Both the position numbers and the translations under genes were made by a program. The notes under the pieces are model-generated. The model saw only the letters and a program-made list of their open reading frames with translations, was not told where the DNA came from and searched no databases. From the IMG/VR virus record IMGVR_UViG_2703718798_000005: a stretch of 49,477 bases of DNA. One strand, given 5' to 3'. Shown here piece after piece: positions 14,307-31,914 of this stretch (positions within the stretch are counted from its first letter, which is position 1; every line of letters starts with the position of its first letter). Source of the stretch: a virus (Duplodnaviria > Heunggongvirae > Uroviricota > Caudoviricetes).

Positions 14307-14377
14307 TATTCCGCAAAGCCTGCCGCCTTTCCTTCACCGTTACGCTGACTCAGAGAACATCATGAGACAGCGTAACA

Positions 14378-15543: not shown

Positions 15544-15553
15544 GGAAAAAGGT

Positions 15554-16070: not shown

Positions 16071-16357
16071 GTGATTTCATTACTGAAGATCAGCGTCTGG
16101 TCATTCTGCGGTCGCTGGCAGATTACAACGGTGAACTGGGTGAATCCGTGCTCCAGGACTGTCTGGATGATTACGGCCACCGCGTGTCCCGCGACACCGT
16201 TCACACCCACATTGCCTGGCTTGCCGAGCAGGGACTGGTGCGCAAACGCGTTCTGATTAACGGTTATTTCATCGCAGAGCTGACCGGCCGGGGGCAGGAT
16301 GTGGCGGAAGGCCGCGCCAGTGTTCCGGGTGTGAAGAAACCACGCGCAAGGGGGTAA
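16067..16357 (+). CDS. Hypothetical protein preceding terminase genes
   Basis: 96 aa ORF, translationally coupled. Confidence 0.45.
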   Translation: MSDFITEDQRLVILRSLADYNGELGESVLQDCLDDYGHRVSRDTVHTHIAWLAEQGLVRKRVLINGYFIAELTGRGQDVAEGRASVPGVKKPRARG

Positions 16358-16359
16358 CG

Positions 16360-16941
16360 ATGGACAAGCCGACGCGTGGTCGTGTACGCAAGGTGGATTT
16401 GCTCCCCGACAGCATCCGTAAGCCGCTGCTGGAAATGCTGCGTGAAAAACGTCTGACGCAGGTCCAGATCCGCGAGGAAATCAACCGTCTGATCCGCGAG
16501 GCAGGCCTGCCGGAAGAGCAGCAGCTTTCACCGGCGGCCATCAGCCGGGAAGCCTCCCGTAATGAGCTGATTGCCCGTAACCTGCGTGATTTACGCGAGC
16601 AGACAAAAGCCATGATGGCCGAACTGGGAGACAAGCCAACCGGTGAAACCACAGCGCTGATTCTGGAGATGTCCCGCGCCCTGATGTACCGCCGTCTGCG
16701 TGCCGCGACCGAATCCCTGAACAGTGACAGCGACGTGGATATGCGTCTTATTAAGGACATCCTCCTGTCAGCACAGCGTGCGGAAAGTGCCGCCGAGCGC
16801 AGCATTAAGCGTGAAAAAGAAATCCGGGCCGCATTTGCTGAAGAGATGGCAAACGCCGTCACCGACGAGCTGCGCGGCGTGGACGGGATGAGTGAACAGC
16901 TTGAGTCCCGTATTAAGGGGATTCTGTTGGGTAAAGCCTGA
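16360..16941 (+). CDS. Mu gp27-like protein (putative terminase small subunit, DUF3486-like)
   Basis: 193 aa, charged and helical, immediately upstream of the large terminase. Confidence 0.55.
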   Translation: MDKPTRGRVRKVDLLPDSIRKPLLEMLREKRLTQVQIREEINRLIREAGLPEEQQLSPAAISREASRNELIARNLRDLREQTKAMMAELGDKPTGETTALILEMSRALMYRRLRAATESLNSDSDVDMRLIKDILLSAQRAESAAERSIKREKEIRAAFAEEMANAVTDELRGVDGMSEQLESRIKGILLGKA

Positions 16942-18605
16942 TGAATAACGCCGAAGAACTCTCCCCCTTACTGACGAATACCGTCTCCACCCGCAAAATT
17001 GATCTGGCCGGTGAAAAAGCCCTGCTGGGCGTGGATGTGCCGGACAGCCTTGATTTGCCCGGTGATATGCCGGTATTTCTGGATTATCAGGCCCGCTGGT
17101 TTGAGGATGAAAGCGAGGTCTGCATCGCGGAAAAATCCCGCCGCACCGGGCTTACCTGGGCGGAAGCCGGGCGTAACGTCATTACCGCCGCAAAGCCTAA
17201 GCGGCGTGGTGGCCGCAATGTGTTTTATGTGGGGTCAAAGCAGGAGATGGCGCTGGAATATATTTCTGCCTGCGCACTGTTCTCCCGTGCCTTTAACCAG
17301 CTGGCAGATGCTGATGTGTATGAGCAGACCTTCTGGGATCGGGATAAAAAAGAAGAAATTCTGACCTACATGATCCGCTTTCCGAACAGTGGATTCAAAA
17401 TTCAGGCACTGTCTTCCCGTCCGTCAAACCTGCGCGGCCTTCAGGGGGATGTGGTGATTGATGAAGCCGCGTTCCACGAGTCACTGGATGAGCTTCTCAA
17501 GGCGGCAATGGCGCTCACCATGTGGGGCGCGCGCGTGCGTATTATCTCCACGCATAACGGCGTCGATAATCTGTTTAATCAGTACATTCAGGAAGCCCGC
17601 GAGGGGCGCAAGGATTACAGCGTCCACCGCATTACCCTGGATGATGCCATTGCGGACGGGCTGTACCGTCGTATCTGTTATGTCACCGGCCGCGAATGGT
17701 CACCGGAAAGCGAGCAGAAGTGGCGTGATGATCTCTACAAAAACGCCCCGACCCGTGAGGATGCCGACGAGGAATACGGCTGTATCCCGAAAAAATCCGG
17801 CGGTGCCTATATTCCTCACGCGCTTATTGAAATGGCGATGCTCCGCGACATCCCGATTCTGACGTTTGAAGCCCCGGACGACTTCATCAGCCGTGCCGCA
17901 TGGCTGCGTGAATCGGAGGTTTTAACCTGGTGTGAAGAACATTTAAAACCGCTTTTAGAGGCGTTAAATCCCCGTTCCCGCTTCAGCTTCGGGGAAGACT
18001 TTGCCCGCACCGGTGACCTCTCCTGCTTTGTGCTGCTGGAAATCACTGAATCCCTGGCAAAACGCGAGGTGTTTCGCGTGGAGCTGCGCAACCTGCCGTA
18101 TGCCCAGCAGGAGCAGGTGATGATGTACATCCTGACCCGCGTTCCGGCGCTGGTCGGTGCGGCGTTCGACGCCACCGGTAACGGCGGCTATCTGGCCGAA
18201 GCCGCGCTGCTGGCCTTTGGCCCGGACATCATCGACTGCGTGATGTTATCGCCGAAGTGGTACGGCGAGTGGATGCCAAAACTGAAGGCCGAGTTTGAGG
18301 ATCAGAATATCCTCGTCGCCCGCCATCAGACCACGCTTGATGATTTGCGCCATGTGAAGGTGGTGAACGGTATCCCGCAAATTGACAAGGGGCGTACGAA
18401 GGACCAGAACGCAACGGCTGTGAACGCCCGCCGCCATGGCGATTTTGCCGTGGCGCTCTGTATGGCAAACCGGGCGTCATACATGGAGGGCTTCATCCTG
18501 GATGAATCAGCCTGTCAGGCGCTGCCGGAGCGGTCGCGGGCCATGGAGGGCGGTTATCGTGATGACGATGAGGCATATCATGAATTTGATCGGGGGTGCT
18601 GGTAG
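16941..18605 (+). CDS. Terminase large subunit
   Basis: 554 aa; position and size; acidic ATPase-like motif (VVIDEAAF). Confidence 0.8.
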   Translation: MNNAEELSPLLTNTVSTRKIDLAGEKALLGVDVPDSLDLPGDMPVFLDYQARWFEDESEVCIAEKSRRTGLTWAEAGRNVITAAKPKRRGGRNVFYVGSKQEMALEYISACALFSRAFNQLADADVYEQTFWDRDKKEEILTYMIRFPNSGFKIQALSSRPSNLRGLQGDVVIDEAAFHESLDELLKAAMALTMWGARVRIISTHNGVDNLFNQYIQEAREGRKDYSVHRITLDDAIADGLYRRICYVTGREWSPESEQKWRDDLYKNAPTREDADEEYGCIPKKSGGAYIPHALIEMAMLRDIPILTFEAPDDFISRAAWLRESEVLTWCEEHLKPLLEALNPRSRFSFGEDFARTGDLSCFVLLEITESLAKREVFRVELRNLPYAQQEQVMMYILTRVPALVGAAFDATGNGGYLAEAALLAFGPDIIDCVMLSPKWYGEWMPKLKAEFEDQNILVARHQTTLDDLRHVKVVNGIPQIDKGRTKDQNATAVNARRHGDFAVALCMANRASYMEGFILDESACQALPERSRAMEGGYRDDDEAYHEFDRGCW

Positions 18606-20194
18606 TGGGACGTATAATTGATCTTGACGGAAAACCTTTCTCCTTTGACCCGGAGATGCAGAGCGCCGCGCTGGATATTCCGCAGATTGCCAGCCGTTAT
18701 ATTGAACATCCGGCCTCGGGTATCACCCCGAACCGGGCGGCACAGTGCCTTCGCGGGGCTGAACGTGGCGATCTGATTGCCCAGTCCGATCTGGCCGCTG
18801 ACATTGAAGAAAAGGATACCCACCTTTTTGCAGAGCTGGGCAAGCGACGCCTTGCCATTCAGGGGGTGCTCTGGAGTATTGAGCCGCCACCGAACGCCAA
18901 CGCGAATGAGAAAAAGGACGCGGAAATGCTCGACGAATATCTTCATTCCGCCGACTGGTTTGATGCCATGCTGTTTGATGCCACCGATGCCATCCTGAAG
19001 GGCTATTCCTGTATGGAGATTGAGCACGGGATGCTCGGTAAAATGCACATCATCCGCGCCATCCGCTGGCGTGACAGCGGGCATTTCTGCCTTAACCCGG
19101 ATGATTTGAGCGAACTGCGGCTGCGTGACGGCAGCCATGCCGGGGTGGCGTTTCAGCCCTTTGGCTGGATAGTGCATCAGTCACGTTCACGCACCGGTTA
19201 CGGCGGCACGACGGGGCTTGTCAGAACGCTTATCTGGCCGTTCATTTTCAAAAACTATTCCGTGCGCGATCTGGCTGAATTTCTGGAGGTGTACGGCCTG
19301 CCGATGAAGGTCGGTAAATACCCGTCCGGGGCAACGCCGGAGCAGAAAAGCGCCCTGATGCGGGCGGTGATGGATATCGGGCGACGTACAGGCGGGATCA
19401 TCCCGGCCGGGATGTCGCTGGAGTTTCAGGCAGCCGCGAACGGTCAGGCCGATCCGTTTGAAACCATGATTTCGTGGGGGGAGCGTTCCATCTCCAAAGC
19501 TATCCTCGGCGGCACGCTGACCACGGAAGCCGGAGACAAGGGCGCACGTTCGCTGGGTGAAGTGCATAACGAGGTGCGCCGGGAAATCAGGGATTCTGAT
19601 TTACGCCAGCTGGCCGCCACGCTGAACCGCGATCTGGTGTATCCGCTGTATGCCCTGAACACCGCCCACGCCATTGATATCCGTCGCCTGCCGCGTATCT
19701 GTTTCCAGACAAAAGAGCCGGGGGATATCACCAAAATCACCAGTGCGGTGATGCAGCTCAGTACGGGGATGGATATTTCTGATCCCTGGATAAGGGAGCA
19801 GACCGGTATTCCGCAGCCCACGCCCGGTGAAGCCATCTTCCGTGTCCGTCAGAGTGGCAATGAACCTGCTCAGACAGACAAAGAGATGCCACCGGAAAAA
19901 CAGGAGAAGACAGAGCAGACAGCGCTGGCTGCCAGACTGCCGGAAGCGAAAAGCAGCCCCCGTGATGAACTGGACGACATGGGGGATGCGGTGCCTGCCC
20001 GCCGGTTACAGGAGGCCATCGACCCGGTACTGGAGCCGGTCATTGATGCCATCAGAACGCGGGGGCTGGCGGAGGCACTGGCAGACCTGCCCGCCCTTTA
20101 CCGTGAAATGGATGATTCCCGCCTGATGACGCTGCTCAGTGATGCCATGTTTGCTGCGGAAATGAAGGGGATGCTGGATGGCACAGGGGATTGA
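18596..20194 (+). CDS. Portal protein (Mu gp29-like, DUF935)
   Basis: 532 aa following the terminase; acidic C-terminus. Confidence 0.75.
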   Translation: MLVVGRIIDLDGKPFSFDPEMQSAALDIPQIASRYIEHPASGITPNRAAQCLRGAERGDLIAQSDLAADIEEKDTHLFAELGKRRLAIQGVLWSIEPPPNANANEKKDAEMLDEYLHSADWFDAMLFDATDAILKGYSCMEIEHGMLGKMHIIRAIRWRDSGHFCLNPDDLSELRLRDGSHAGVAFQPFGWIVHQSRSRTGYGGTTGLVRTLIWPFIFKNYSVRDLAEFLEVYGLPMKVGKYPSGATPEQKSALMRAVMDIGRRTGGIIPAGMSLEFQAAANGQADPFETMISWGERSISKAILGGTLTTEAGDKGARSLGEVHNEVRREIRDSDLRQLAATLNRDLVYPLYALNTAHAIDIRRLPRICFQTKEPGDITKITSAVMQLSTGMDISDPWIREQTGIPQPTPGEAIFRVRQSGNEPAQTDKEMPPEKQEKTEQTALAARLPEAKSSPRDELDDMGDAVPARRLQEAIDPVLEPVIDAIRTRGLAEALADLPALYREMDDSRLMTLLSDAMFAAEMKGMLDGTGD

Positions 20195-21509
20195 TTTAGG
20201 TTATGCCGCCACCCTTCCCTCAAAAGAGGCGGTGGCATACTTCCGCGCCAAAGGGGTGCATATCAGCTGGAACTGGTTCGAAACAGACGCGGATGTTCAT
20301 GCCCGTTCATTCACGGCGGCAAGAGTGGCACGCCTGGACGTACTGACCACACTACAGGCGGAAGTGCAGCGTGCTGTTGATGAGGGGATTTCACAGAAAG
20401 CATTTATCAGCACGCTGACACCCCGCCTGCAAAAGCTGGGATGGTGGGGAAAACAGATTGTGGTGGACAGCGCCGGTAACGCAGAAGAAGTGCAGCTGGG
20501 CAGTCCCCGCCGTCTGGCGCTGATTTACAACGTGAATACCCGTGTGGCTTACAATGCCGGGCGTTACACGCAGATGATGAACAACACGGACACGCATCCG
20601 TTCTGGCAGTATGTGGCGGTGATGGACAGCCGCACCCGCCCGGCGCATTCCGCTCTTAACGGTCTGGTATTCCGCTATGACGATCCGTTCTGGAATACAC
20701 ACTACCCACCCAATGGCTGGAACTGTCGCTGCCGTGTCCGGCCATTGTCTCAGGTCCGTCTGGATGCAATGGGGTTATCCGTTTCATCCGGTCAGGATCA
20801 TCTCTCCACCCGCAATGTTGAGGCTGGCGTGGATAAGCAGACCGGGGAAGTCAGAGAAATGCCGGTGACCACATATTCAGATGGCACCAGAACCATGACA
20901 CCGGATGTGGGCTGGTCATATAACCCCGGTTCGGCGGCGTTCGGCACAGACCAGGCGCTGATCCGTAAACTGATCGAGGTGAAAAGCCCGGCGCTGCGGG
21001 AAATGGTGGTTCAGGAGATGAACAACAGCCCGGAGCGGCAGCTGGCGTTCCGCATCTGGGCAAAAAACATCATGAAAACCCGGCGAGGCGGTAACGATAT
21101 CCGCACGCTGGGCTTTATGACCGAAAGCATTGCGCAGGCGGTGGAAAGCCGGACGGGAACGCCACCGGCCCGCCTGCTGGCGATGAGCGGTAAAAATGTG
21201 CTCCATGCGGACAGCATGAAACATCAGAATGACGGTATCGCCCTGACGCCGGAGGATTTCGGGCGCTTACCGGCAATGCTGGCAAGGCCAAAAGCGGTAC
21301 TGTGGGACAAACGGCACAACAATCTGATGTATATCGTGGAAAATCAGGATGGCAGTGTGCAGATTGCCGTTAATGCACCGTACAGCCTGAAGCGTCAGCC
21401 GGATAAACTGGATGTGATTGTTAATGCTTACCGGGTTATCAATATGGATAAGCTGAAATCGGATATCCGGGGCGGAATGCTTGAGGTACTGGAAGGAGAT
21501 ATTGATTAA
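20178..21509 (+). CDS. Mu F-like head morphogenesis protein
   Basis: 443 aa; PFWQYVAVMDSRTRPAHSALNGLVF ... NGWNCRCRV matches the Phage Mu F family as recalled. Confidence 0.8.
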   Translation: MAQGIDLGYAATLPSKEAVAYFRAKGVHISWNWFETDADVHARSFTAARVARLDVLTTLQAEVQRAVDEGISQKAFISTLTPRLQKLGWWGKQIVVDSAGNAEEVQLGSPRRLALIYNVNTRVAYNAGRYTQMMNNTDTHPFWQYVAVMDSRTRPAHSALNGLVFRYDDPFWNTHYPPNGWNCRCRVRPLSQVRLDAMGLSVSSGQDHLSTRNVEAGVDKQTGEVREMPVTTYSDGTRTMTPDVGWSYNPGSAAFGTDQALIRKLIEVKSPALREMVVQEMNNSPERQLAFRIWAKNIMKTRRGGNDIRTLGFMTESIAQAVESRTGTPPARLLAMSGKNVLHADSMKHQNDGIALTPEDFGRLPAMLARPKAVLWDKRHNNLMYIVENQDGSVQIAVNAPYSLKRQPDKLDVIVNAYRVINMDKLKSDIRGGMLEVLEGDID

Positions 21510-21630
21510 CGGTCAGTGGCGGGGGTCGAACCCGCATACATGATCCACCCGGAGGCAGGCACCGACTTTACCAGTTAAGCGTACACTGACCGCCTGTTTA
21601 TTTTATATTCATCCTTTATGCGGAGGCAAT

Positions 21631-22104
21631 ATGTCATCCATTGATGCCGCTGTCGTTGTTGACGTTACGCGTCTCCAGCGGGTCTTTGCCCGGCTTCAGT
21701 TTGTGGGTGGCGGGAAAGGCCTGGCCCGCAGTGTGGCGTCCAGCCTTCTGTCATCGTCAGAAATGGCGTTTGAACAGGAAAAAGAGCCGGACGGCGAACG
21801 CTGGCATGACTGGTCAGATCCTTACCGCAAGTGGCGTACCCGTAAGGGATACATGCCCGGCAAAATCCTGACACTGAACGGCGATCTGGCCCGACGCCTG
21901 ACCACGGATTATGGCGACACCTGGGCGCTGATTGGATCAAATGAGCCTTATGCGGCCATTCATCAGTGGGGTGGCCTGCCCGGTATGCCGCCGGGACCGG
22001 CGGCCATTGGTGCACGTCCGTATATGGGCTTTGATCAGGTGGCAGAGCAGGAGATCATGGACGAAATCAGAAAACGCTTTAAAAAGGCCACAGAAACGCC
22101 TTAA
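21631..22104 (+). CDS. Mu G-like virion morphogenesis protein
   Basis: 157 aa; position between F and I. Confidence 0.65.
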   Translation: MSSIDAAVVVDVTRLQRVFARLQFVGGGKGLARSVASSLLSSSEMAFEQEKEPDGERWHDWSDPYRKWRTRKGYMPGKILTLNGDLARRLTTDYGDTWALIGSNEPYAAIHQWGGLPGMPPGPAAIGARPYMGFDQVAEQEIMDEIRKRFKKATETP

Positions 22105-22280
22105 TTGTTTAAGGTATGCAAATGCATTACCTTACCCCCTTCAGGCGCGTGTCGTGATTTTCTAACCTGAATTTAACGGGCTTTAAAATCTGCGTGAAGC
22201 GCCTTTGTATTTTTCCCCTGAAAGCACTTCCTGAAATCCCGCAAAACCCGCCCTGAAAATTCCCGGCCTATGCTGCCGGA
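22105..22280. promoter_or_regulatory. Central G-I intergenic region: candidate late promoter and possible gyrase-site-like element
   Basis: 176 bp non-coding gap in an otherwise tightly packed late region; CCTGAA(A) at about 22166, 22217, 22230, 22252; imperfect palindrome AAGGTATGCAAATGCATTACCTT at about 22110. Confidence 0.35.
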
Positions 22281-23405
22281 ATGAAGACGAAAAACACGCC
22301 CAAACTTGCTTATGCCATTCTGAATGCCATCAGCCTGTCCGCAGACGGGGACGGTGACTGGTGTCAGATCATGCCAGCCGGTCGGGTAAAGGCCCGTGAC
22401 GGTCGCCCGGAAAAACCGGCCGAGGGCTGGCTGATCAACCATGCAGCCGTTGAGCGCATGGTCTCCCGTGTTGTGGCGCTCAATCAGCCGGTGAAAATTG
22501 ACTACAACCACCAGACCCTGATTGAGGGACATCCGGCACCGGCTGCCGGTTTTGTGATGGCCTCACCGGAGAATTTTCGCTTCAGTGAAGAGCGAGGTTT
22601 CGAGGTGCGCCCGAAGTGGAACCCTCCGGCCCTTGAACATCTGCGTAATAACGAATTCCCCTGGTTTTCACCGGTGATTGGCTATGACGAGAGCACCGGC
22701 GAACCTGTCGAACTTCGGATGCTGGCTATTACCGGTGACCCCGGTCTGACCGGCATGAATCCTGTCGCCGCACTGTCGGCGGATGACCTTTATAACGCCT
22801 TAAACCCTCCTTTAAAGGATACCTCCATGAATGAGCAATTACGCCAGTTGCTGACGGCGCTCGGTCTGACCGTGGCTGACGGTGACGAATTTACGCCGGA
22901 GCTGGGCACGGCAGCGCTGTCTGCCCTCACCGGGATCAAAACCCGTGCGGATGCACACGACAACCTGAAAACACAGGTCGCCAGTCTGTCGGCAGAGCTG
23001 GAAACTGCAAAAGGCACACCGGCTGGCGGCAGTATTGACCTGACGAAATACGTGCCCGTTGAAACGTATAACGCCCTGCGTACCGAATACGTTGCGCTGT
23101 CGGCGCAGCACGGCAGCACCACGCTGGAGCAGTTGCTGGACAAGGCCGAGTCCGAAGGACGCATCTTCAAAAGTGAACGCGGCTATCTGGAACAACTGGG
23201 CGGGCAGATTGGCGTGGCGGCACTCTCTGCACAGCTTGACGCCCGCCAGCCGGTTGCGGCCCTGACCGGCCTTCAGACCGACACCGTGACCGTGCCGGAT
23301 AAAAAGACTGCCACCGCTGTGCTGTCGGCTGAAGATATCGCGGCCGCCAAACTGCTGGGTAAAACCGAAGCCGAGTTCCTGAAAATGAAAGAGGAAATGC
23401 AATAA
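22281..23405 (+). CDS. Mu I-like head protease/scaffold protein
   Basis: 374 aa; position upstream of the major head gene; Ala/Leu-rich scaffold-like C-terminal half. Confidence 0.7.
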   Translation: MKTKNTPKLAYAILNAISLSADGDGDWCQIMPAGRVKARDGRPEKPAEGWLINHAAVERMVSRVVALNQPVKIDYNHQTLIEGHPAPAAGFVMASPENFRFSEERGFEVRPKWNPPALEHLRNNEFPWFSPVIGYDESTGEPVELRMLAITGDPGLTGMNPVAALSADDLYNALNPPLKDTSMNEQLRQLLTALGLTVADGDEFTPELGTAALSALTGIKTRADAHDNLKTQVASLSAELETAKGTPAGGSIDLTKYVPVETYNALRTEYVALSAQHGSTTLEQLLDKAESEGRIFKSERGYLEQLGGQIGVAALSAQLDARQPVAALTGLQTDTVTVPDKKTATAVLSAEDIAAAKLLGKTEAEFLKMKEEMQ

Positions 23406-24352
23406 TGCCTACCCCGATTACACCGGCGATGATCACCGCCCTGATGACGGGCTACCGTTCTGATTTTCAGGCCGGGATGTCCATGGCCCCGTCGCAGTAC
23501 AAAAAAATTGCGATGACCGTGCCCTCCACATCGAAATCCAACACCTACGGCTGGCTGGGGCAGTTCCCGCAGTTCCGTGAGTGGATCGGCTCCCGCGTCA
23601 TCGAGAAGATGAAGGCCTATGGCTATGCCATCGTGAACAAAACCTTTGAAGGCACCGTCGCCATTAACCGCGATGACTTCGAAGACGATAACCTCGGTAT
23701 TTATTCCCCGTTGTTCCAGGAGATGGGGCGCGCTGCTGCGGCACAACCGGATGAACTGGTCTTTGCTGCTCTTCGTGACGGGATTAATGCGGCCTGCTAT
23801 GACGGCCAGAACTTCTTTGATACCGAACATCCTGTTTACCCCAAAGTGGATGGCTCCGGGGATGCGCAGATGGTCAGCAATATGTTTGTGGCAAAAACCG
23901 GCTCTGTCGGTGCACAGGCGGATTACAGCGGTCCTGCCTGGTATCTGCTCGACTGTTCACGCGCAATCAAACCGCTGATTTATCAGGATCGCCGTAAGGC
24001 TGAACTGGTTGCCCAGACCAAAGTCGATGAAGGTCGCGCATTCACCGATAACGAATTTGTGTTCGGTGCTTCCGCCCGTCGCAATGTGGGCTACGGCTTC
24101 TGGCAGATGGCCTACATGATGCAGTCACCGCTGACGCTGGATGCACTGTGGCACGGCTGGTCAGCCATGCGCGAATTTACCGCTGACGGTGGCCGCAAAC
24201 TCGGCATCAAACCCACCTGTATTGTTGTCCCCACCTCGCTGGAAAAACAGGCGGTGCAGCTGCTGGAGCGTGAACTGTTCGCAGACGGAAACGCAACCGT
24301 CTCTAACGAGATGAAGGGCAAGCTGGAGCTGGTTGTCGCGGATTATCTGTAA
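23405..24352 (+). CDS. Major head subunit (Mu T-like)
   Basis: 315 aa; position and size. Confidence 0.75.
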   Translation: MPTPITPAMITALMTGYRSDFQAGMSMAPSQYKKIAMTVPSTSKSNTYGWLGQFPQFREWIGSRVIEKMKAYGYAIVNKTFEGTVAINRDDFEDDNLGIYSPLFQEMGRAAAAQPDELVFAALRDGINAACYDGQNFFDTEHPVYPKVDGSGDAQMVSNMFVAKTGSVGAQADYSGPAWYLLDCSRAIKPLIYQDRRKAELVAQTKVDEGRAFTDNEFVFGASARRNVGYGFWQMAYMMQSPLTLDALWHGWSAMREFTADGGRKLGIKPTCIVVPTSLEKQAVQLLERELFADGNATVSNEMKGKLELVVADYL

Positions 24353-24395
24353 ACGGTGAGCCGGGTTTACGGCCCGGCCCCTGCGGAGGGCAAAT

Positions 24396-24800
24396 ATGAA
24401 TGAACATCACACTGTGGCAGCAACAGATGATTCAGGTCTTCAGGTCAGTGGTGACAATTCTGTCACGGTGCTGGCAGAAGTGCGTTGCAGTCGTTCGGCG
24501 TTTCGTCGTGCGGGGTTCCTGTTCACGCGTGGACGTCAGCAGGTTGAGGTCACCCCGGAGCAGCTTGCCCGACTGGAGGCGGAGCCATGCCTCACTGTGC
24601 GAATACTACAGACGTCTGCTGATGATGCGGGGAGCGTGGCGGGTGTGGTTCATGCAGTGGCCGGTACAGATTTAGCCGAAGCCGAAGCCGAAGCCGAAGC
24701 CGAAGCCGAAGCCGAAGCCGAAGCCGAAGCCGAAGCCGAAGCCGGACAGGATGCTCCCTGGAAAAAGACCGGTAACAAAGCGAAACAGGCCCGTGCATGA
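24396..24800 (+). CDS. Hypothetical head-region protein containing an (Ala-Glu)11 tract
   Basis: 134 aa ORF with RBS GGAGGG; contains an in-frame hexanucleotide repeat. Confidence 0.55.
   Translation: MNEHHTVAATDDSGLQVSGDNSVTVLAEVRCSRSAFRRAGFLFTRGRQQVEVTPEQLARLEAEPCLTVRILQTSADDAGSVAGVVHAVAGTDLAEAEAEAEAEAEAEAEAEAEAEAGQDAPWKKTGNKAKQARA
24675..24740 (+). repeat. Perfect tandem hexanucleotide repeat (GCCGAA)x11
   Basis: Read directly: 11 uninterrupted GCCGAA units followed by GCCG; encodes AEAEAE... Confidence 0.9.
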
Positions 24801-25216
24801 ATTACGCCACTGAAACCGATATGCGGGCGCGTTACCGCGAGGATTTGCTCAGGCCGTTACTGGCTGTGCCCCGTTCGGATGAGCCGGATACGCGCAAGCT
24901 GAACCGGGCGCTGACAGATGCGTCAGCCCTTATCGACAGCTATCTGTCCGCCCGTTACACGCTGCCGCTGGAGGTTATTCCGGCCGTTCTTGTTCAGCAC
25001 TGTTGCGCGATTGCCTTTTATTACCTGTGCGATCAGCGAGCCTCAGATCAGGCGCGTGACCGTTACCGTGAGGCGCTGGCCTGGCTGAAAGATGTCATGA
25101 ACGGCAATGTGCCGGTAGGTGTGGATACGAACGGAGCGGCCCCTGAATCCGGGGATTTACCACAGGTTCAGTCTGATGCAGCGGTATTCGGGCGCAACCA
25201 GAAGGGCTTCATATGA
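24797..25216 (+). CDS. Mu gp36-like protein (DUF1320-like), putative head-tail joining
   Basis: 139 aa; position after the major head gene. Confidence 0.5.
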   Translation: MNYATETDMRARYREDLLRPLLAVPRSDEPDTRKLNRALTDASALIDSYLSARYTLPLEVIPAVLVQHCCAIAFYYLCDQRASDQARDRYREALAWLKDVMNGNVPVGVDTNGAAPESGDLPQVQSDAAVFGRNQKGFI

Positions 25217-25773
25217 TTACGGAAACCGAACAGGCATACATCGCCCGTATCCGTGAGTATTTCGGGAATGAACTGGTGTCTGTTGACACGCATCCCGGCG
25301 ACTGGAACGACAGCGTACTGCGCACCATGCTGATTAACGCCCCGGCGATCTACGTTGCCTGGCTGGGTGCCGGTGAAGGCCGTACCCGTGGTCGCCTGGT
25401 CAGTCACTGGGTGTTCTACGTCATCGGCGACATGCTCAACGGGCGTGAGGCCAGCCGTCCCGGATTGTATCAGATTGTGGCCCGGCTGATTGCCGTGCTT
25501 AACGGCTTCAGAACAGAAAAAACCTCACCGCTTTACTTTGAAAAGGCGGTCAACGGTTACACCGAAACCCAGGCGGACAGTGGTGCGGTGATGTATGCGC
25601 TTTATTTCTCCTGCGAGGAAATGATCGCACCGCTGACCGATATCAGCTCGCTGGACGACTTCCTGCGTCATTACGAAACCTTTGTGGAGCCGCCCGGTAC
25701 GCCGCCGTTTGAGGCACATATTGATTTGCCGGGGAACACGACAACGGCGGTCGAACCGCCGGAGGAACTGTAA
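25213..25773 (+). CDS. Mu gp37-like protein (DUF1834-like)
   Basis: 186 aa; position. Confidence 0.5.
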   Translation: MITETEQAYIARIREYFGNELVSVDTHPGDWNDSVLRTMLINAPAIYVAWLGAGEGRTRGRLVSHWVFYVIGDMLNGREASRPGLYQIVARLIAVLNGFRTEKTSPLYFEKAVNGYTETQADSGAVMYALYFSCEEMIAPLTDISSLDDFLRHYETFVEPPGTPPFEAHIDLPGNTTTAVEPPEEL

Positions 25774-26019
25774 ATGAAAACCATCTTTATCAAACCCGCG
25801 CCGGGACGCCTGATTCGTGATCCCGACACAATGCGCCCGCTGGCACAGGAGGGGGAGGAAAAGCCCTTTACGCCGTTCTGGTGTCGGCGTCTTGATGACG
25901 GCGATGTCATTCAGGCTGAAAAAGCCGCTGAAGAGGCTCCGGCTGTATCTGCGGATGCAACGACTGCGACAGAAAAACCGGTCGCCCAACCGGCATCCGA
26001 TAAGGAGAAACCGCAATGA
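25774..26019 (+). CDS. Hypothetical protein (Mu gp38 position)
   Basis: 81 aa ORF immediately upstream of the sheath gene. Confidence 0.45.
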   Translation: MKTIFIKPAPGRLIRDPDTMRPLAQEGEEKPFTPFWCRRLDDGDVIQAEKAAEEAPAVSADATTATEKPVAQPASDKEKPQ

Positions 26020-27515
26020 TTAATTTTGACGGGATCGGTAATGACCGCCGTATACCGCTGATTGAGGTTGAGTTTAATAACTCCATGGCTGTCACCGGCA
26101 CTCCGGCACAGCGTCAGTGTGTGCTGCTGTTTGGTCAGGCGAGAATGAAAGAGAATGCCGTGGACGGTGCCGGTGTTCTGGATGTTCCGGTCAGGATCAC
26201 CCGTGCGTCTCAGGCAACAGAATTCTGGGGGCGCGGCTCCATGATTGCCCTGATGGTGGCGGAATTTATCGCCATCAATCCTGATGCTGAACTGTATGCC
26301 ATTGCTCAGGGGAGCGGCACCGGTCAGGCTCAGGCATGTCTCATGAATATAATTGGCACCGCCTCTCAGGATGGTGTTCTGCACATTTATATCGGCGGTC
26401 GGCGTTATCTGCTGGCTGTCACGAAGGGGCAGAAAGGTAAGGAGCTTATTGACGCTCTGGTCTCTGTTATTAATGCCGATGCTGATGCGCCCTTCAGTGC
26501 TTATGCAGGTCAGGTAGCAGATAACGCCAGCGGACTCAAGGGAAGTATGGGAATTAATGCCCGTTTTACCGGTGAATGTTCCGTACATGATATCCGTGTT
26601 AATTATCATGACGGAGAAACCACACCGGGTGGACTGACCATTGAACTTGGGTATCCCAAAACAAAAGCCACTAACCCGGATATCACCCGAAGCGTGGCGG
26701 GTATGGGCGATCGCCAGTACAACTATGTCGTCATGCCCTATAAGGATGATGCAAACCTGAAAATCATCAGTGATGAGCTTCTGAAACGCTGGGGACCGGC
26801 CAAAATGTCTGACGGTGTGCTGTGGATGGCGCATACCGGCACGTTTGGTGAGGTGCAGGCATTCGGGGCAAAACGCAATGATTTTCTGGCGACCTGCACA
26901 TTCATTCCCAAAGCCCCTGAACCGGATTACCTCTGGGCAGCGGCGGTCTGCGCCACCTGTGCGCCGTCTCTGGGGGCAGATCCTGCGCGTCCGCTTCAGA
27001 CGCTGGCGCTTCCGTCACGCATGGCCCCGGCCCCGGCCGATCGTCTGACGCGTGAAGAGCGTAACAGTCTGCTGTGGGGAGGGATTGCCACGGTCAGTGT
27101 GGCTGCCGGTGATGTGGTTCAGATCGAACGTCAGGTGACCATGTATCGCCAGAACGTGTACGGCGAAAGTGATCCCAGCTATCTGGATGTGGAAACCATC
27201 TACACCCTCTCCTGGCTGCGTTATTCCCTGCGTACTTTTATCACACAACGTTTTCCGCGCCATAAACTGGCTGATGACGGGACGCCCGTTCGTGCCGGTC
27301 AGAATATCGTGACGCCGGAGATCATGAAGCTTCAGTTAATTTCGCTGGGTGAAGAGTGGGTGGAACTCGGGCTGGTCGAAAATCTGGACACCTTTAAAAA
27401 GAATCTGCTTGTGGAGCGTAATGCGTCAGATCGAAACCGTCTTGACGTGTTATGCACGCCGGATCTGGTTAACCAGTTCCGCTTCCTGGCAGCACAGATC
27501 CGTTTCATTTTGTGA
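26016..27515 (+). CDS. Contractile tail sheath protein
   Basis: 499 aa; size and position upstream of tube and tape measure. Confidence 0.8.
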   Translation: MINFDGIGNDRRIPLIEVEFNNSMAVTGTPAQRQCVLLFGQARMKENAVDGAGVLDVPVRITRASQATEFWGRGSMIALMVAEFIAINPDAELYAIAQGSGTGQAQACLMNIIGTASQDGVLHIYIGGRRYLLAVTKGQKGKELIDALVSVINADADAPFSAYAGQVADNASGLKGSMGINARFTGECSVHDIRVNYHDGETTPGGLTIELGYPKTKATNPDITRSVAGMGDRQYNYVVMPYKDDANLKIISDELLKRWGPAKMSDGVLWMAHTGTFGEVQAFGAKRNDFLATCTFIPKAPEPDYLWAAAVCATCAPSLGADPARPLQTLALPSRMAPAPADRLTREERNSLLWGGIATVSVAAGDVVQIERQVTMYRQNVYGESDPSYLDVETIYTLSWLRYSLRTFITQRFPRHKLADDGTPVRAGQNIVTPEIMKLQLISLGEEWVELGLVENLDTFKKNLLVERNASDRNRLDVLCTPDLVNQFRFLAAQIRFIL

Positions 27516-27523
27516 GGTAAGGC

Positions 27524-27889
27524 ATGAGCGGAAAACAGTATCAGGGCACGGCCACTATCCGTGTGAACGGTCAGGAATACGAGACGCTTGAGGGGGCTAC
27601 ATTTTCTCCGTCAGGTTTTGAACGTGAAGTGGTGAAAGGCGCGAAAGTCTATGGTTACCGCCAGAAACCACGTGAAGCGACACTGGACTGCAAATTTCCG
27701 GCAGGCGGAGAAGGTTCACCAGCCGCCGATGAAATCAACAACTGGACTGCTGTCACTATCGAGTTTGTGGCGGATACCGGCGAAGTCCACATGATGACGA
27801 AGGCCTGGAGCAGTGAACCGGCCTCGCTTGACGGTGGCGGGGAGATCTCCGTGAAGTTCGCCAGCGCCACCAGTACCCGTGTTCAGTGA
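27524..27889 (+). CDS. Tail tube protein
   Basis: 121 aa following the sheath gene. Confidence 0.75.
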   Translation: MSGKQYQGTATIRVNGQEYETLEGATFSPSGFEREVVKGAKVYGYRQKPREATLDCKFPAGGEGSPAADEINNWTAVTIEFVADTGEVHMMTKAWSSEPASLDGGGEISVKFASATSTRVQ

Positions 27890-27903
27890 TCAGGAAAAAT
27901 AAA

Positions 27904-28380
27904 ATGACCACACGTAAGAAAAAAACGGCAGTTTCCGAGGCAGCCGTGATGGAGGCAATCCGGGAAGCACTTGAGGGGGCTGATCCACGCACTGCCGGGC
28001 TGACAGAGCAACTGGCAAAGGGATATGTGGATCTGCTTGATGGTCTGCCGTTTGGTGAGACCCGTGAATATCGTGTCACGTTCCGGGAACTGACAGCGAA
28101 AGACAGTATTGACGCAGAAGCAGAAGCCGAGCGCGTGGTGGAGACAAACAATGGCCCGATGCTGATAGCGTCTCCGTCGTTACGCGGTGTTGCACTGCTG
28201 CGCCGTCAGATTGCCGCAGTGGGAGACATTGAAGGTCCGTTGTCACCCCGTCAGATTGGACAGTTAAGCGAGCGCGATCTCTCCCGCCTGATGGCAGCGG
28301 TCAGCCTGCTGGATACCGCGCTTGCCGGAAAGCTGGCAGCTGACCGGGGGCGATCAGGCGCAGTGTCGGGATCAGATTGA
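27904..28380 (+). CDS. Tail assembly chaperone, putative (possible frameshift extension to 28504)
   Basis: Start moved to ATG 27904 (RBS AGGA); lies between tube and tape measure genes; the neighbouring frame is open from about 28292 to 28504. Confidence 0.5.
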   Translation: MTTRKKKTAVSEAAVMEAIREALEGADPRTAGLTEQLAKGYVDLLDGLPFGETREYRVTFRELTAKDSIDAEAEAERVVETNNGPMLIASPSLRGVALLRRQIAAVGDIEGPLSPRQIGQLSERDLSRLMAAVSLLDTALAGKLAADRGRSGAVSGSD

Positions 28381-28506
28381 AGAAGCGGCAATTATCCTGG
28401 GGATGGTGACAAAAAGCGGTCCGGAATGGGCGCTTAACCTCCCCCTGTCGCAACTTTACCGGCACTGCCGACAGACAGAAAAAATCATCAGAACGAAGCA
28501 GTAAGT

Positions 28507-30582
28507 ATGGCCCGAAATCTCAGAGCATCTCTGATAGTTGATTTGCTCGGCAATATCTCAGCCAAATCCCGCCAGTGGTCACAGGAGCTGGGGGCATTCT
28601 CACGCTCCGGCCAGGCGGGGCTGGGTGGCCTGGGAAATGCTGCCCGCCGTGCCGGGCAGGAAACAGATGTACTCGGAAGCAGGATGCAGCGCACGCTGGC
28701 CGGGGTGCGGGGCAGTATCCGCCATGTCACTTCTGATTTTGACCGTCTTCAGGGCAGTATTACCGGCACCATCGGGCGGATCAGCAATCTTTACGGAATG
28801 CTGGCCGGTGGTGCTGCTGTATATGGCTTTAACCGGGGATTTATTCGCCCGGCAGCGGAGATGGAAACCTATATGATTCGCCTGAACTCCCTTTACAAAG
28901 GGGATCGGGCGAAAACTGATGATGTCCGCAGGTGGGCAATACAGAATGCGAAGGAAACCACCTGGGGGCTGGCTGGCGTCATGCAGGAATATACGTCCAG
29001 TCTGGGCTTTGGTATGAGTGACAGGGAGGCCCGAAATTTTGTCACCATGCTTCAGGATCAGGGTGCCGTGGGCGGCTGGTCACTGTCCGATGCACAGGGG
29101 GCATCCCTGCAACTGAAACAGATGTATGCAAGAGGCAGTATTCAGGCAGCGGATGCAAATATTCTTGCCACCTACGGCATTAATGCCTACCGCGTGCTGG
29201 CTGATCGTCTGGGTGTGGACCAGAAAGTGGTCAGAAAACTTGGTGAAAAAGGGCTGCTTGGGCCGGACAGTATTCGCCTGTTATTTCAGACGCTGGCGGA
29301 ACAGGCCAGGGGAGCACAAAAGGACGCAATGAATTCCTGGAGTGGCCTGACGGCCATGATGGGTGACGTCTGGGATCAGTTTGCCCGGGATGTGATGGAC
29401 AGTGGGCCATTTGAAAAACTGAAGGGTAATCTCAGGGGATTTCTTTCATGGGTTGACAGTGCCAAATCTGATGGCAGTTACCATTCCCTGGCGGAAAGTA
29501 CGGCATCAGCCATGAACCAGGGCTTTGAGTATGCCCGTGATGCAGTGACAGGGTTTTATCAGGCGATCAGAAAGGTACGCGACACGCTTCAGGCTCTGCG
29601 GGATGCGGGCTATGGTGATGCGCTGGATCGCATTGGTCAGGGGGCACAGACCGCCGCGAAATACCTGCTGTACATGTATCTCGCCACCCGTGCCCTGAAA
29701 ATGGCGCGGGCTGTCGGAACGGGGATTATACGTCCGGGTGCTGCATTGCTGGGATACGGATTATCAGCGGCGGCCTTCCTTACCTCACCTTTCCGGCGCT
29801 CTCCTCCGGCCGGAACACCACCAGGCACATCTCAGGGACGAGGGCAACGTTTTATAAACTTTCTTACCGGGGTAAATCCGGCAGCCGTTCAGCCAGTACT
29901 TGTAACAAACTGGCCCACAGGAGGACTGTCCGGCACCGGCGCGACCGATACATCCTCAGGCGGACGTCAGGGGCGGGGCCGCAGGAAACGCGGACCGGGG
30001 CGCGGAAGACCGGTCACGCCTCCCCTGCCACCGTCCCCAGTGCCACCGTCTCCCTCTTCTGGTGGGGCAGGGTTCTGGGGGCGCATGATGGGGCGCGCCG
30101 GTGGGTTACTTTCGTCTGTCGGTAGCCGCATGGGGCTGGGGCGTTTCTCCGGCTTTTTCCGCAGTGCCGGTGGACTGGCCGGCCGGCTGGGTGGAGGTGC
30201 CCTGTGGGCTGGCGCGATGGCAGCCCCGGTTCTGCTGGATGGCAGCGCCAGTGCCACAGACAAGGGAGAAGCGGTCGGCTCTCTTGCAGGCAGTATTGCC
30301 GGTGGTGCGCTGGGGGCGGCAGCCGGACCTGTGGGGATTGCCATTGGTTCTACGGTGGGCAGCTATCTCGGTAACTATCTGGGGGGATGGCTGACTGAAG
30401 CCTGGCAGAAATTACGGGGCAGTGATGATGAAAGCAGTGGACAGGCGGTACAAAAAGCCTCTGCCCGTGTGGAGCTGGTTGCCCCGGAAGGGTGGCAGGC
30501 TCGCAGTATTGATATTGATGACACGTCCGGTCACGGACTGGATGTGAATGTCTGGAACGGAGGGAATTATGGCCTCTGGTGA
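28507..30582 (+). CDS. Tail tape measure protein
   Basis: 691 aa; Gly/Ala-rich C-terminal region; follows the chaperone. Confidence 0.8.
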   Translation: MARNLRASLIVDLLGNISAKSRQWSQELGAFSRSGQAGLGGLGNAARRAGQETDVLGSRMQRTLAGVRGSIRHVTSDFDRLQGSITGTIGRISNLYGMLAGGAAVYGFNRGFIRPAAEMETYMIRLNSLYKGDRAKTDDVRRWAIQNAKETTWGLAGVMQEYTSSLGFGMSDREARNFVTMLQDQGAVGGWSLSDAQGASLQLKQMYARGSIQAADANILATYGINAYRVLADRLGVDQKVVRKLGEKGLLGPDSIRLLFQTLAEQARGAQKDAMNSWSGLTAMMGDVWDQFARDVMDSGPFEKLKGNLRGFLSWVDSAKSDGSYHSLAESTASAMNQGFEYARDAVTGFYQAIRKVRDTLQALRDAGYGDALDRIGQGAQTAAKYLLYMYLATRALKMARAVGTGIIRPGAALLGYGLSAAAFLTSPFRRSPPAGTPPGTSQGRGQRFINFLTGVNPAAVQPVLVTNWPTGGLSGTGATDTSSGGRQGRGRRKRGPGRGRPVTPPLPPSPVPPSPSSGGAGFWGRMMGRAGGLLSSVGSRMGLGRFSGFFRSAGGLAGRLGGGALWAGAMAAPVLLDGSASATDKGEAVGSLAGSIAGGALGAAAGPVGIAIGSTVGSYLGNYLGGWLTEAWQKLRGSDDESSGQAVQKASARVELVAPEGWQARSIDIDDTSGHGLDVNVWNGGNYGLW

Positions 30583-31914
30583 CGGTCGTGGTGCGTTCCG
30601 TGGTGTGCCGTTCCTCGTCTGGCGTGAGCAGCGCGAACGTGGTGGGCGAAACATTGTCCGTCGGGAATATCCGTTACGGGAAACCGGTGGGGCAGACGAT
30701 CTGGGACCTAAACTGACTGAATTTACGTTCAGTGTACTTGTGATGGGGGATGATGTTCAGACACAGCGAAATCGTCTGCGTGATGCCCTTCGTGCTCCCG
30801 GTGCCGGGGAGCTGCTTCACCCGGATTACGGCACGTTAAATGTGCTGATAAACAGCTTTGAAAGTCGTTATAACGCCGCTGAACAGGGCGTGGTTGAGTT
30901 CACCATTAATGTCACGCCGGTAAGTGATGATACCGCACCTGCTGTCACACAGGACACGGCCGCCATTCTGGAGCAGAAGAGTACCACCGCGCTCGGGCAG
31001 GTTTTTGAAACCCTGGAAGCGGGCTGGACGGTGATCTCTGACGGAATGCACGATGTCCAGGCAATGACCGAAACCATCAGTGATAAGGTGTCCGCCCTGG
31101 AAAATGCCGTTTCCGGCATGGGGATTGTACAGGATATCAGTGCCTTTACTGCCACGTTCACGGCGCTGAAAGGGAATGCCACGGCATTACTGACAGCACC
31201 TTCCCGCATGGCCTCATCTTTTGCGGGGCTTTTCAGTGCCCTGATCACCCTGCCATCGCTGCCGTCACTGTCTTCAGGAGGCCTGAATACCCGGCCGGCA
31301 GTATCGGCCGGACGACATCCGCCGTCTCTCAGGGAATGCCGCAACTGTACAGGACATTATCTTCCCTGCGTTACGTGCTGGATGAGCAGGATAATCCGCA
31401 GACTCTCATCGGTCTGACACCGGCAGCACAAAAGAATATTCGTCTGATACGGGCGGTAATGCAGAGTGCTGCCGTGGTGGCCCAGGCACAGACCGTGGGA
31501 AAACTGCTGGATCAGGTTCTCAGTCAGGAAACCCTGCCGGACAGTGACGCAGCCCACCGTACCTGGCCTGTCTGGCTGGAAAGTTCAGTTGATCTTCAGC
31601 GCATTAACCGTGACTTAAGCGAAGCGCTCGAACGGCAGGTGATGACACTGTCCGGGCAGGGGTATACCGCCACGGCGCTGACGCTTCGTGATGCCAGACT
31701 GGCACTGACAGAGGATCTGAATACACGGGGAGTTCAGCTACCCGGTGCAACAGTAGTGACTGTACGTACCACCGAGCCTGCACTGGTGACCCTGTACCGT
31801 GCCACCGGGAACAGTACCGGCTGGCAACGTTTTGTGCGCCGTAACGGTATTGTTGATCCGCTGTTCATTCCCGGAGGCCATTCAGTGGAGGTGATTAGTG
31901 AGCAGCAGGGTTGA
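30569..31914 (+). pseudogene. DNA circularization protein (Mu N/gp43-like), apparently frameshifted
   Basis: N-terminal part in frame 2 (30569-31417), C-terminal part in frame 1 (open from about 31084, ATG at 31336, to 31914); the frame-2 tail is Cys-rich and implausible while frame 1 reads like protein. Confidence 0.55.

What the first reader, a model, noticed from the sequence alone, without database searches (positions are those of the whole stretch)
24661..24750. (GCCGAA)x11 in-frame hexanucleotide repeat encoding an (Ala-Glu)11 tract in a head-region protein
Eleven perfect GCCGAA units lie within the 134 aa ORF between the major head gene and the gp36-like gene. A 6-bp unit keeps the frame under slipped-strand expansion or contraction, so repeat number probably varies between isolates and changes the length of an acidic linker in a probable virion protein. 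Perfect repeats of this length are uncommon in phage structural genes.
Basis: seen in the sequence. Interest (0 to 1): 0.45.

Follow-up and report, generated by a model that had tools for sequence, protein, structure and literature searches.

The report
Variable Ala-Glu repeat in Mu gp35-like gene
A perfect 11-copy six-base repeat inside a small head-module gene of a Mu-like prophage of E. coli is a real, fast-mutating length polymorphism (1 to 17 copies among strains) that stretches a floppy acidic tail of a protein of unknown role; it is an ordinary kind of feature, but a clean example.

Summary
(GCCGAA)x11 lies at window 24675-24740, in frame in the 134-aa ORF 24396-24800, and encodes (Ala-Glu)11. 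The ORF is the orthologue of phage Mu gp35 / Haemophilus HI1506 (Pfam FluMu_N). It sits between the major head gene gpT and the adaptor gene gp36 of a 39.5-kb Mu-like prophage.

In complete E. coli genomes the same gene, on near-identical flanks, carries 1 to 17 copies, always in frame. Two cattle isolates have 40.3 kb of prophage and flanks with zero differences except 13 versus 14 copies. This is a slippage-driven coding microsatellite.

The tract grew from a single Ala-Glu in a linker motif (LAEAG) shared with Mu gp35. AlphaFold models only residues 25-73 as folded; the tract and the 19-residue basic tail are modelled as disordered. This lineage lacks the C-terminal helical domain of Mu gp35 and HI1506.

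Distant family members at the same gene position carry old, degenerate Ala-Glu/Lys/Asp tails, so charged Ala-rich tails recur in the family.

Whether the protein is in the virion is unproven: the Mu cryo-EM study could not resolve gp35.

Verdict: real, ordinary mechanism, function of the tract unknown and probably dispensable. Interest is modest.

The parts
24675..24740 (+). (GCCGAA)x11 perfect hexanucleotide array encoding (Ala-Glu)11, residues 94-115
   Evidence: Regex scan; TRF 24674-24744, 100% matches, score 142; sequence.
24741..24746 (+). Degenerate terminal unit GCCGGA (Ala-Gly). With one GCCGAA it forms the minimal 'AEAG' core seen in 1-copy alleles and in Mu gp35 (LAEAGG).
   Evidence: Allele comparison; Mu gp35 translation. 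Some database proteins show (AG)n runs here (P0003, P0013, P0017, P0029, P0067).
24396..24800 (+). Mu gp35 / HI1506-related gene, 134 aa. Its stop overlaps the gp36 start (ATGA).
   Evidence: ORF list; Pfam FluMu_N 37.3 bits against cut-off 25.8; PDB 2OUT E=2.6e-5; phrog_3622, unknown function; RefSeq name 'HI1506-related protein'.
24468..24614 (+). Folded FluMu_N domain (residues 25-73): beta-hairpin, helix, strand. Contains the conserved FRRAG motif (R37, R38). Net charge about +2.7.
   Evidence: AF2 pLDDT 86-93 for the 10-residue blocks spanning residues 21-70; Foldseek hit to 2OUT, prob 1.00; conserved columns; charge.
24741..24797 (+). Short basic C-terminal tail AGQDAPWKKTGNKAKQARA (residues 116-134, charge about +3.8). 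It takes the place of the 3-helix C-domain of Mu gp35 and HI1506.
   Evidence: Alignments; charge; pLDDT about 40.
23405..24352 (+). Major head protein (Mu gpT family), upstream neighbour
   Evidence: Pfam Mu-like_gpT E=1.6e-118.
24797..25216 (+). Mu gp36 head-tail adaptor, downstream neighbour
   Evidence: Pfam Phage_Mu_Gp36 E=3.5e-35; phrog_195 head-tail adaptor.
3168..42659 (+). Mu-like prophage that carries the gene, flanked by the 5-bp direct repeat ATGGG (3163-3167 and 42660-42664)
   Evidence: Host-flank BLAST coordinates abut with a 5-base overlap in strain ABW_A19; junction sequences; 96-98% identity to annotated Mu-like prophages across its main aligned blocks, one short early-region segment 86%.

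Best explanation
The array is a slippage-prone coding microsatellite (VNTR) in the disordered C-terminal part of the Mu gp35 orthologue of a Mu-like prophage of E. coli.

Shown here:
- It arose at a pre-existing GCC GAA GCC GG (Ala-Glu-Ala-Gly) linker motif that phage Mu itself has at the protein level (LAEAGG).
- Copy number ranges from 1 to 17 in present-day genomes.
- It changes in otherwise identical prophages.
- Every allele stays in frame.
- The tract lies in a segment modelled as disordered, after a small folded basic domain (FluMu_N) and before a short basic tail.

Inferred:
- Each gain or loss of a unit happens by replication slippage between identical 6-base units.
- The protein tolerates this because the segment is an unstructured spacer or tail. 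Each unit adds two residues and one negative charge, taking net charge from about -1 at n=1 to about -17 at n=17.
- Most of the length variation is therefore neutral or nearly neutral drift under a stepwise mutation process, not a switch.

The protein itself is a conserved head-module accessory, always encoded between the major capsid gene and the gp36 adaptor gene. It probably acts in head completion or the neck. Its biochemical role is not known.
For: Perfect array and frame.

Identity of the gene: Pfam FluMu_N above the gathering score; PDB 2OUT by sequence and by fold; homology to Mu gp35.

Polymorphism: matches in 228 of 5,426 complete E. coli genomes, with match lengths differing in steps of 6. 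Thirteen alleles were read base by base, with 1, 2, 4, 5, 6, 7, 10, 11, 15, 16 and 17 copies, all open reading frames. In the evenly spaced sample of 60 records, copy numbers derived from match length were n=1:10, 2:4, 4:2, 5:3, 6:4, 7:2, 8:5, 9:4, 10:7, 11:3, 12:3, 13:4, 14:5, 15:2, 16:1, 17:1.

Hypermutability: strains 138 and 113 have 20,279 + 20,060 flanking bases with 0 differences, and 13 versus 14 units. By match length (417 and 423 bp), 13 copies occur in two and 14 copies in three near-identical assemblies (chromosome length and locus position; strain names suggest one series), so the difference is not a one-off assembly error.

DNA-level rather than protein-level drive: arrays are almost always perfect, and the neighbouring GCCGGA unit also appears expanded as (AG)n in some database proteins.

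Dispensability of length: 1-copy alleles occur with intact gpT and gp36 neighbours.

Disorder: pLDDT about 40 for residues 78-134 against 86-93 for the blocks covering residues 21-70. From my memory of the HI1506 NMR paper (PMID 17400915, not readable here), that protein has a roughly 30-residue unstructured linker.

Conserved synteny gpT, then the FluMu_N gene, then gp36 directly or after one small ORF (L018), in distant lineages.
Against: Neutrality is inferred, not measured.

Distant gp35 homologues at the same gene position carry long alternating Ala-Glu/Lys/Asp tails. These are old: they are degenerate at the DNA level (63-86% matches). One uses all four Ala codons yet keeps the Ala-x alternation. 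That argues such tails are retained by selection, so tract length here may matter.

The sampled genomes are phylogenetically clustered (many O157:H7 and other STEC), so the allele spectrum is not an unbiased estimate.

No read-level data were available for this window, and the exact 134-aa protein is not in the 15-billion-protein collection.

The function and location of gp35 are unknown: it was not resolved in the Mu virion.
Confidence: 0.7

Rival explanations
1. The (Ala-Glu)n tract is a selected, tunable functional module. It would be an acidic spacer or electrostatic partner, for example a DNA-mimicking or auto-inhibitory tail that competes for the basic FRRAG domain and the Lys-rich tail, or that contacts a basic surface of the capsid, portal or terminase. 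Copy-number change would then be a fast way to retune charge and reach.
For: Charged Ala-rich tails recur independently in distant gp35 homologues at the same gene position. They persist after the DNA repeat has decayed. Net charge swings from about -1 to about -17 across alleles, next to two basic segments. Intermediate and long alleles are common: 44 of the 60 sampled records have at least 5 copies.
Against: One-copy alleles make up about 1 in 6 of the sampled records and sit with intact gpT and gp36 neighbours. Mu, D108 and SfMu carry a gp35 homologue; in Mu itself the linker has no Ala-Glu repeat and a folded C-domain follows. The neighbouring Ala-Gly unit expands as well, which fits blind slippage. 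The allele spectrum is broad and flat rather than peaked.
Confidence: 0.2
2. The repeat acts at the nucleic-acid level, for example as an mRNA or DNA structure, a protein-binding array, or a modulator of translational coupling into gp36, and the encoded peptide is incidental.
For: The array lies only 56 bases (24741-24796) upstream of the overlapping gp36 start.
Against: Neither strand folds better than shuffled controls (z = +2.8 and +3.1; all 200 shuffles fold at least as well). There is no Rfam match in the window. Alleles with a single unit exist with the same gp36 junction. The frame is always preserved.
Confidence: 0.04
3. Assembly or sequencing artefact: the true copy number in this genome differs from 11, or the array is collapsed or expanded.
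For: Many draft-assembly proteins of this family are 'partial' and end inside or at the repeat (P0054, P0059, P0061, P0063, P0065, P0068), so the locus does break short-read assemblies. No reads are available for this window. The exact protein is not on record.
Against: The array is 66 bp, shorter than normal reads. Match lengths implying 10, 11 and 12 copies each occur in many independent complete genomes; the 10-, 11-, 15-, 16- and 17-copy alleles were read base by base. Alleles are shared between related assemblies.
Confidence: 0.03
4. A phase-variation (contingency) switch that turns gp35 or downstream genes on and off.
For: Simple-sequence repeats in coding regions are the classic mechanism of phase variation in Haemophilus and Neisseria (general knowledge).
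Against: The unit is 6 bases, so slippage cannot shift the frame. All 13 alleles read base by base keep the ORF open and keep the ATGA overlap with gp36.
Confidence: 0.01

Closest known systems
Phage Mu gp35 / Haemophilus FluMu HI1506 (Pfam PF17891 FluMu_N; PDB 2OUT)
   Same: It has a homologous N-terminal alpha/beta domain with the FRRAG motif. The gene position between gpT and gp36 is the same. A flexible segment follows the domain, and it shares the LAEAG linker motif with Mu.
   Different: It lacks the C-terminal helical domain of Mu gp35 and HI1506 (LNTRIRA...AQIKAAL). Instead it has (AE)n plus a 19-22 residue Lys-rich tail. Mu itself has no repeat at this spot.
In-frame hexanucleotide VNTR loci of E. 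coli O157:H7 used for MLVA typing (general knowledge; no paper naming this locus was found)
   Same: It is a 6-base unit, in frame, perfect, with stepwise copy-number differences between close relatives.
   Different: It sits on a transposable Mu-like prophage present in only 228 of 5,426 complete genomes, at varying chromosomal positions. It therefore cannot serve as a universal typing locus. I found no record of it in the searchable literature.
Ala-Glu/Lys/Asp low-complexity tails of distant FluMu_N proteins (P0086, P0103, P0104, P0107, P0111, P0114)
   Same: The domain order is the same (FluMu_N, then an alternating Ala-charged tail), and so is the gene position, shown for P0107 and P0111. 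They are built from 6/12/24/48-base repeats.
   Different: Those tails are mixed acidic and basic and are degenerate at the DNA level, so they are old. The E. coli tract is purely Ala-Glu, perfect and still changing.
Dipeptide-repeat spacers such as the Ser-Asp repeat region of staphylococcal Clf/Sdr proteins (general knowledge)
   Same: A dipeptide repeat encoded by a short in-frame DNA repeat, variable in length between strains, forming an unstructured acidic spacer.
   Different: The protein class and cellular context are unrelated. A spacer function is demonstrated there but not here.
Phage lambda gpFI and Bacillus prophage protein YqbF (small proteins encoded just after the major capsid gene; from memory)
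   Different: The scores are at noise level and there is no sequence similarity, so this is an analogy and a lead, not membership. gpFI is a packaging chaperone absent from virions (from memory). Nothing comparable has been shown for gp35.

Membership tests
FluMu_N / Mu gp35 / HI1506 family | Sequence match to Pfam PF17891 above the gathering score | tested here: met
   37.3 bits against cut-off 25.8, E=2.2e-9, residues 36-72.
FluMu_N / Mu gp35 / HI1506 family | N-domain fold as in the solved structure 2OUT | tested here: met
FluMu_N / Mu gp35 / HI1506 family | Gene lies between the Mu-type major head gene gpT and the gp36 adaptor gene | tested here: met
   Window; Mu; distant relatives L016-L019.
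FluMu_N / Mu gp35 / HI1506 family | Second, C-terminal helical domain after the flexible linker (two-domain architecture of HI1506 and Mu gp35) | tested here: not met
   Only 19 residues follow the repeat, and they do not align to the Mu or Edwardsiella C-domain. pLDDT is about 40. The protein is a member of the N-domain family but a different architecture.
Variable-number tandem repeat (coding microsatellite) | Head-to-tail identical units | tested here: met
   11 perfect units.
Variable-number tandem repeat (coding microsatellite) | Copy number differs between isolates on conserved flanks | tested here: met
   1 to 17 copies.
Variable-number tandem repeat (coding microsatellite) | Changes faster than the surrounding sequence | tested here: met
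   13 versus 14 copies, with 0 differences in 40,339 flanking bases.
Phase-variable contingency locus | Repeat changes shift the reading frame or promoter spacing, giving on/off expression | tested here: not met
   The unit is 6 bases inside the ORF, and all 13 alleles examined stay open.
Virion structural protein (head or neck component) | Physically detected in purified particles or resolved in a virion structure | not testable with these tools
   The Mu GenBank record calls gp35 a connector complex protein, citing PMID 29767456, which is not readable here. The Mu cryo-EM study could not resolve gp35. No PDB virion chain matches the model.

The most novel reading that the evidence does not exclude
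The alternating Ala-charged tail is a functional module of the gp35 family that has been invented repeatedly. In the E. coli lineage it would be kept as a live microsatellite so that the phage can quickly retune the charge and reach of an acidic arm (net charge about -1 to -17). This arm might be a DNA-mimicking or auto-inhibitory tail that gates binding of the basic FRRAG domain during head completion or packaging, or a variable surface that escapes a host sensor of phage head proteins.
Probability: 0.12. Interest if true: 0.55.

Novelty: new member of a known kind. Interest (0 to 1): 0.3.

Why it matters
The locus has three modest uses.

First, it gives a clean natural length series, 1 to 17 Ala-Glu units on otherwise identical proteins. 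Such a series could be used to ask what Mu gp35-type proteins do. They are conserved across Mu-like phages, have a solved domain structure, and still have no assigned role or location in the particle.

Second, it is the fastest-changing site seen in this prophage. It could therefore discriminate very closely related STEC isolates that carry the prophage, and it flags a spot where short-read assemblies break.

Third, it shows that a linker can turn into a long charged tail by simple slippage, and that similar tails have become fixed in distant relatives.

None of this overturns current understanding.

Tried and rejected
- **Literature.** Searches for 'HI1506' (0 papers), for MLVA/O157/Mu-like (1 irrelevant paper), for VNTR plus GCCGAA (32 papers; none of the 10 listed concerns this locus) and for Sp18 plus tandem repeat (0 papers) found no description of this locus. 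The two key papers, PMID 29767456 on Mu neck subunits and PMID 17400915 on the HI1506 structure, are not held. What I say about them comes from the GenBank note or from memory.
- **JBD30 and Sf14.** In the JBD30 and Sf14 papers, 'gp35' names unrelated proteins. I considered the JBD30 minor capsid protein as a positional analogue, but no PDB capsid chain matched the model, so I dropped the idea.
- **Hairpins.** Hairpin-promoted slippage is not supported. Both strands fold worse than shuffles.
- **RNA genes.** No Rfam family and no tRNA were found in the window.
- **Exhaustive protein search.** The search with the N-terminal 93 residues gave only 20 hits. The long multi-stretch hits P0118 and P0119 are unrelated repetitive proteins.
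- **Exact sequence look-up.** The 134-aa protein is not on record.
- **Defence systems.** PADLOC found nothing in the prophage accessory genes.

Full report
**1. The observation**

The window contains exactly eleven perfect GCCGAA units at 24675-24740 (regex scan). Tandem Repeats Finder reports 24674-24744, period 6, 11.8 copies, 100% matches, score 142. That is by far the strongest array in the window; the next scores 74. A degenerate twelfth unit, GCCGGA, follows.

The array is in frame in ORF 24396-24800 (+), 134 aa, and gives (Ala-Glu)11 at residues 94-115. No other perfect repeat with a unit above 2 bases and at least 4 copies exists in the 49.5 kb. Chance is excluded: my own estimate is about 4^-60 per position. 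The finding's coordinates, 24661-24750, simply include a few flanking bases.

**2. What gene this is**

- The ORF matches Pfam FluMu_N (PF17891) at 37.3 bits against a cut-off of 25.8.
- It matches the solved structure 2OUT (H. influenzae FluMu gp35 / HI1506) by sequence (E=2.6e-5).
- It falls in PHROG 3622, 'unknown function'.
- RefSeq names its relatives 'HI1506-related protein'.
- tblastn links residues 23-63 to gene 35 of phages Mu, D108 and SfMu.

Its neighbours are the Mu I protease (22281-23405), the gpT major head protein (23405-24352), the gp36 adaptor (24797-25216, start overlapping the stop as ATGA), gp37, DUF2635 and the tail sheath.

The whole element is a 39.5-kb Mu-like prophage at window 3168-42659. 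It is bounded by a 5-base direct repeat, ATGGG, and is inserted in a PAAR-Rhs effector gene of an E. coli chromosome.

**3. Copy number varies**

megablast of the gene against 5,426 complete E. coli genomes finds it in 228 of them. Match lengths differ from the 405 bases here in steps of six: 335 to 435.

I read 13 alleles base by base.
- They carry 1, 2, 4, 5, 6, 7, 10, 11, 15, 16 and 17 units on near-identical flanks.
- All are open reading frames and all end in the same GCCGGA CAG GAT.
- The 17-unit allele has two GTC variants near its 5' end. One divergent allele reads GCCGAA GCCGAA ACCGTA.

In the evenly spaced sample of 60 of the 229 records, copy numbers were derived from match length, and each class of partial match was checked on one sequence. 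The counts are:

| n | 1 | 2 | 4 | 5 | 6 | 7 | 8 | 9 | 10 | 11 | 12 | 13 | 14 | 15 | 16 | 17 |
|---|---|---|---|---|---|---|---|---|---|---|---|---|---|---|---|---|
| records | 10 | 4 | 2 | 3 | 4 | 2 | 5 | 4 | 7 | 3 | 3 | 4 | 5 | 2 | 1 | 1 |

The spectrum is broad and flat, as expected for stepwise slippage.

Protein clusters from a 5.8-billion-cluster collection show the same thing. They also show occasional (Ala-Gly)n runs, consistent with expansion of the neighbouring GCCGGA unit, as well as AEVE and AESE variants.

**4. It is the fastest-changing site in the prophage**

Cattle isolates 138 and 113 carry the prophage at the same chromosomal site. Across 20,279 bases to the left and 20,060 bases to the right of the array there is not one difference, yet one has 13 units and the other 14. 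By match length, the 13-unit allele occurs in two and the 14-unit allele in three near-identical assemblies that appear to belong to one isolate series. The difference is therefore inherited, not a one-off assembly error.

**5. Origin**

Mu gp35 (136 aa) reads ...SASSAETLAEAGGLDVLGVGD LNTRIRATVAGL.... One-copy E. coli alleles read ...GTDLAEAGQD.... A distant relative has KAEAGG. So a single Ala-Glu-Ala-Gly is an old linker motif.

In the E. coli lineage it is encoded as GCC GAA GCC GG, already 1.8 copies of the hexamer, and the array grew from it. Mu encodes the motif as GCT GAG GCT GGG and has no repeat.

**6. What the tract does to the protein**

AlphaFold2 with a 34-sequence alignment models residues 25-73 with high confidence: block means of pLDDT are 86-93 across residues 21-70. 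The elements are a beta-hairpin, a helix and a strand. Residues 78-134, including the whole tract, are at pLDDT about 40, that is, disordered.

The folded domain matches 2OUT (Foldseek prob 1.00). It carries the nearly invariant Arg37-Arg38 of the FRRAG motif and has net charge about +2.7. The tract contributes -11 and the last 19 residues (AGQDAPWKKTGNKAKQARA) about +3.8. Whole-protein charge runs from about -1 at n=1 to about -17 at n=17.

Unlike Mu gp35, the Edwardsiella homologue and HI1506, this lineage has no C-terminal helical domain. The tract is therefore not a linker between two domains. It is part of a disordered acidic-then-basic tail.

**7. Family context**

Distant FluMu_N proteins from metagenomes and from a Deltaproteobacteria MAG also lack the C-domain. 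After the N-domain they carry long alternating Ala-Glu/Lys/Asp tails, for example ...AEAKAEAEAEAKAQADADAKAKADEDAKADAK....

Three of them were located on contigs. Each lies just after a Mu-type gpT gene; gp36 follows directly in two and after one small ORF in the third.

Their tails are degenerate tandem repeats of 6, 12, 24 or 48 bases with 63-86% matches. One uses all four Ala codons while keeping the Ala-x alternation.

So repeat-born charged tails have arisen several times in this family and have persisted. This is the main argument that tract length may not be entirely neutral.

**8. Mechanism and rivals**

- **Best reading (confidence about 0.7).** Replication slippage between identical 6-base units drives gains and losses. 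The frame is always kept. The protein tolerates it because the segment is unstructured, and one-copy alleles, sitting between intact gpT and gp36 genes, show the tract is dispensable.
- **Tunable functional acidic tail (about 0.2).** Supported by section 7, but not tested.
- **Nucleic-acid-level role.** Unlikely. Neither strand folds better than shuffles, there is no Rfam hit, and one-copy alleles keep the same junction to gp36.
- **Phase variation.** Excluded by the 6-base unit.
- **Assembly artefact.** Very unlikely for a 66-base array whose allele recurs in many complete genomes. The locus does, however, break many draft assemblies, as shown by 'partial' proteins ending in the repeat.

**9. 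Is it a virion protein?**

Not shown. The curated Mu GenBank record labels gp35 'head-to-tail connector complex protein', citing a paper I could not read. The 2025 Mu cryo-EM study lists gp35 among 'probably structural' proteins, possibly connector-related, but could not resolve it. No solved virion chain matches the model.

**10. Verdict**

It is a textbook coding VNTR in a disordered tail of a conserved but uncharacterised Mu head-module protein. I found no published description of it, so it is a new member of a known kind. Interest is modest, at 0.3. It is useful as a natural length series for studying gp35 and as a hypervariable marker, but it is not surprising.

Noticed in passing
window 3163-3167 and 42660-42664; prophage 3168-42659: The Mu-like prophage (about 39.5 kb) is flanked by a 5-base direct repeat, ATGGG, the target duplication expected for Mu-type transposition. 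In strain ABW_A19 the two host flanks abut with a 5-base overlap.
   Followed up: partly
window 1067-3172 (+) and 43093-45441 (+): The prophage has split a type VI secretion PAAR-Rhs effector gene. The upstream ORF carries prePAAR, PAAR and RHS repeats and runs into the prophage end. The downstream ORF carries the remaining RHS repeats and core (neighbours annotated as VgrG/Rhs). The effector is presumably inactivated.
   Followed up: partly
window 38372-40411 (+): This is a 679-aa accessory gene between the gin-like invertase (37712-38272) and mom (41795-42532). It has a sialate O-acetylesterase-type SASA domain plus DUF6645 and no PADLOC defence match. It looks like prophage cargo rather than a Mu core gene.
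   Followed up: partly
window 7746-8381: The early region differs from the otherwise 96-98% identical prophage of strain 138. Only a short 86%-identical block aligns there, so it is a replaced cassette among the small early genes.
   Followed up: no
window 24765 (codon TGG, residue 122): This allele has Trp (TGG) where most relatives have Arg (CGG) in the basic tail (APWKK against APRKK). The C-terminal tail also comes in two forms...KQARA and ...KQAKKARA.
   Followed up: partly
P0071 (E. coli protein from the collection): One database protein reads the array in the CCG-AAG frame as (Lys-Pro)n and then returns to frame (...VWWFMQPAGTKPKPKPDEGYSRKKTG...). This is either a double frameshift allele or a sequencing error.
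   Followed up: no
P0123 and P0128 (metagenomic proteins): Two proteins carry two FluMu_N domains in tandem, each with the RRRAGF motif, at their C-terminal ends. This is an architecture different from Mu gp35 (Pfam, for P0128).
   Followed up: no
L016 4190-4339; L018 4257-4325; L020 240-620: Distant gp35 homologues have tails made of degenerate 12-, 24- and 48-base repeats encoding Ala-Lys-Ala-Asp or Lys-Ala-Glu-Ala-type units. These are independent, older versions of the same phenomenon.
   Followed up: partly
window 2090-2164: Imperfect 9- and 21-base tandem repeats (CTGGGGAAA-type; 77-78% matches) lie inside the PAAR-Rhs gene upstream of the prophage.
   Followed up: no
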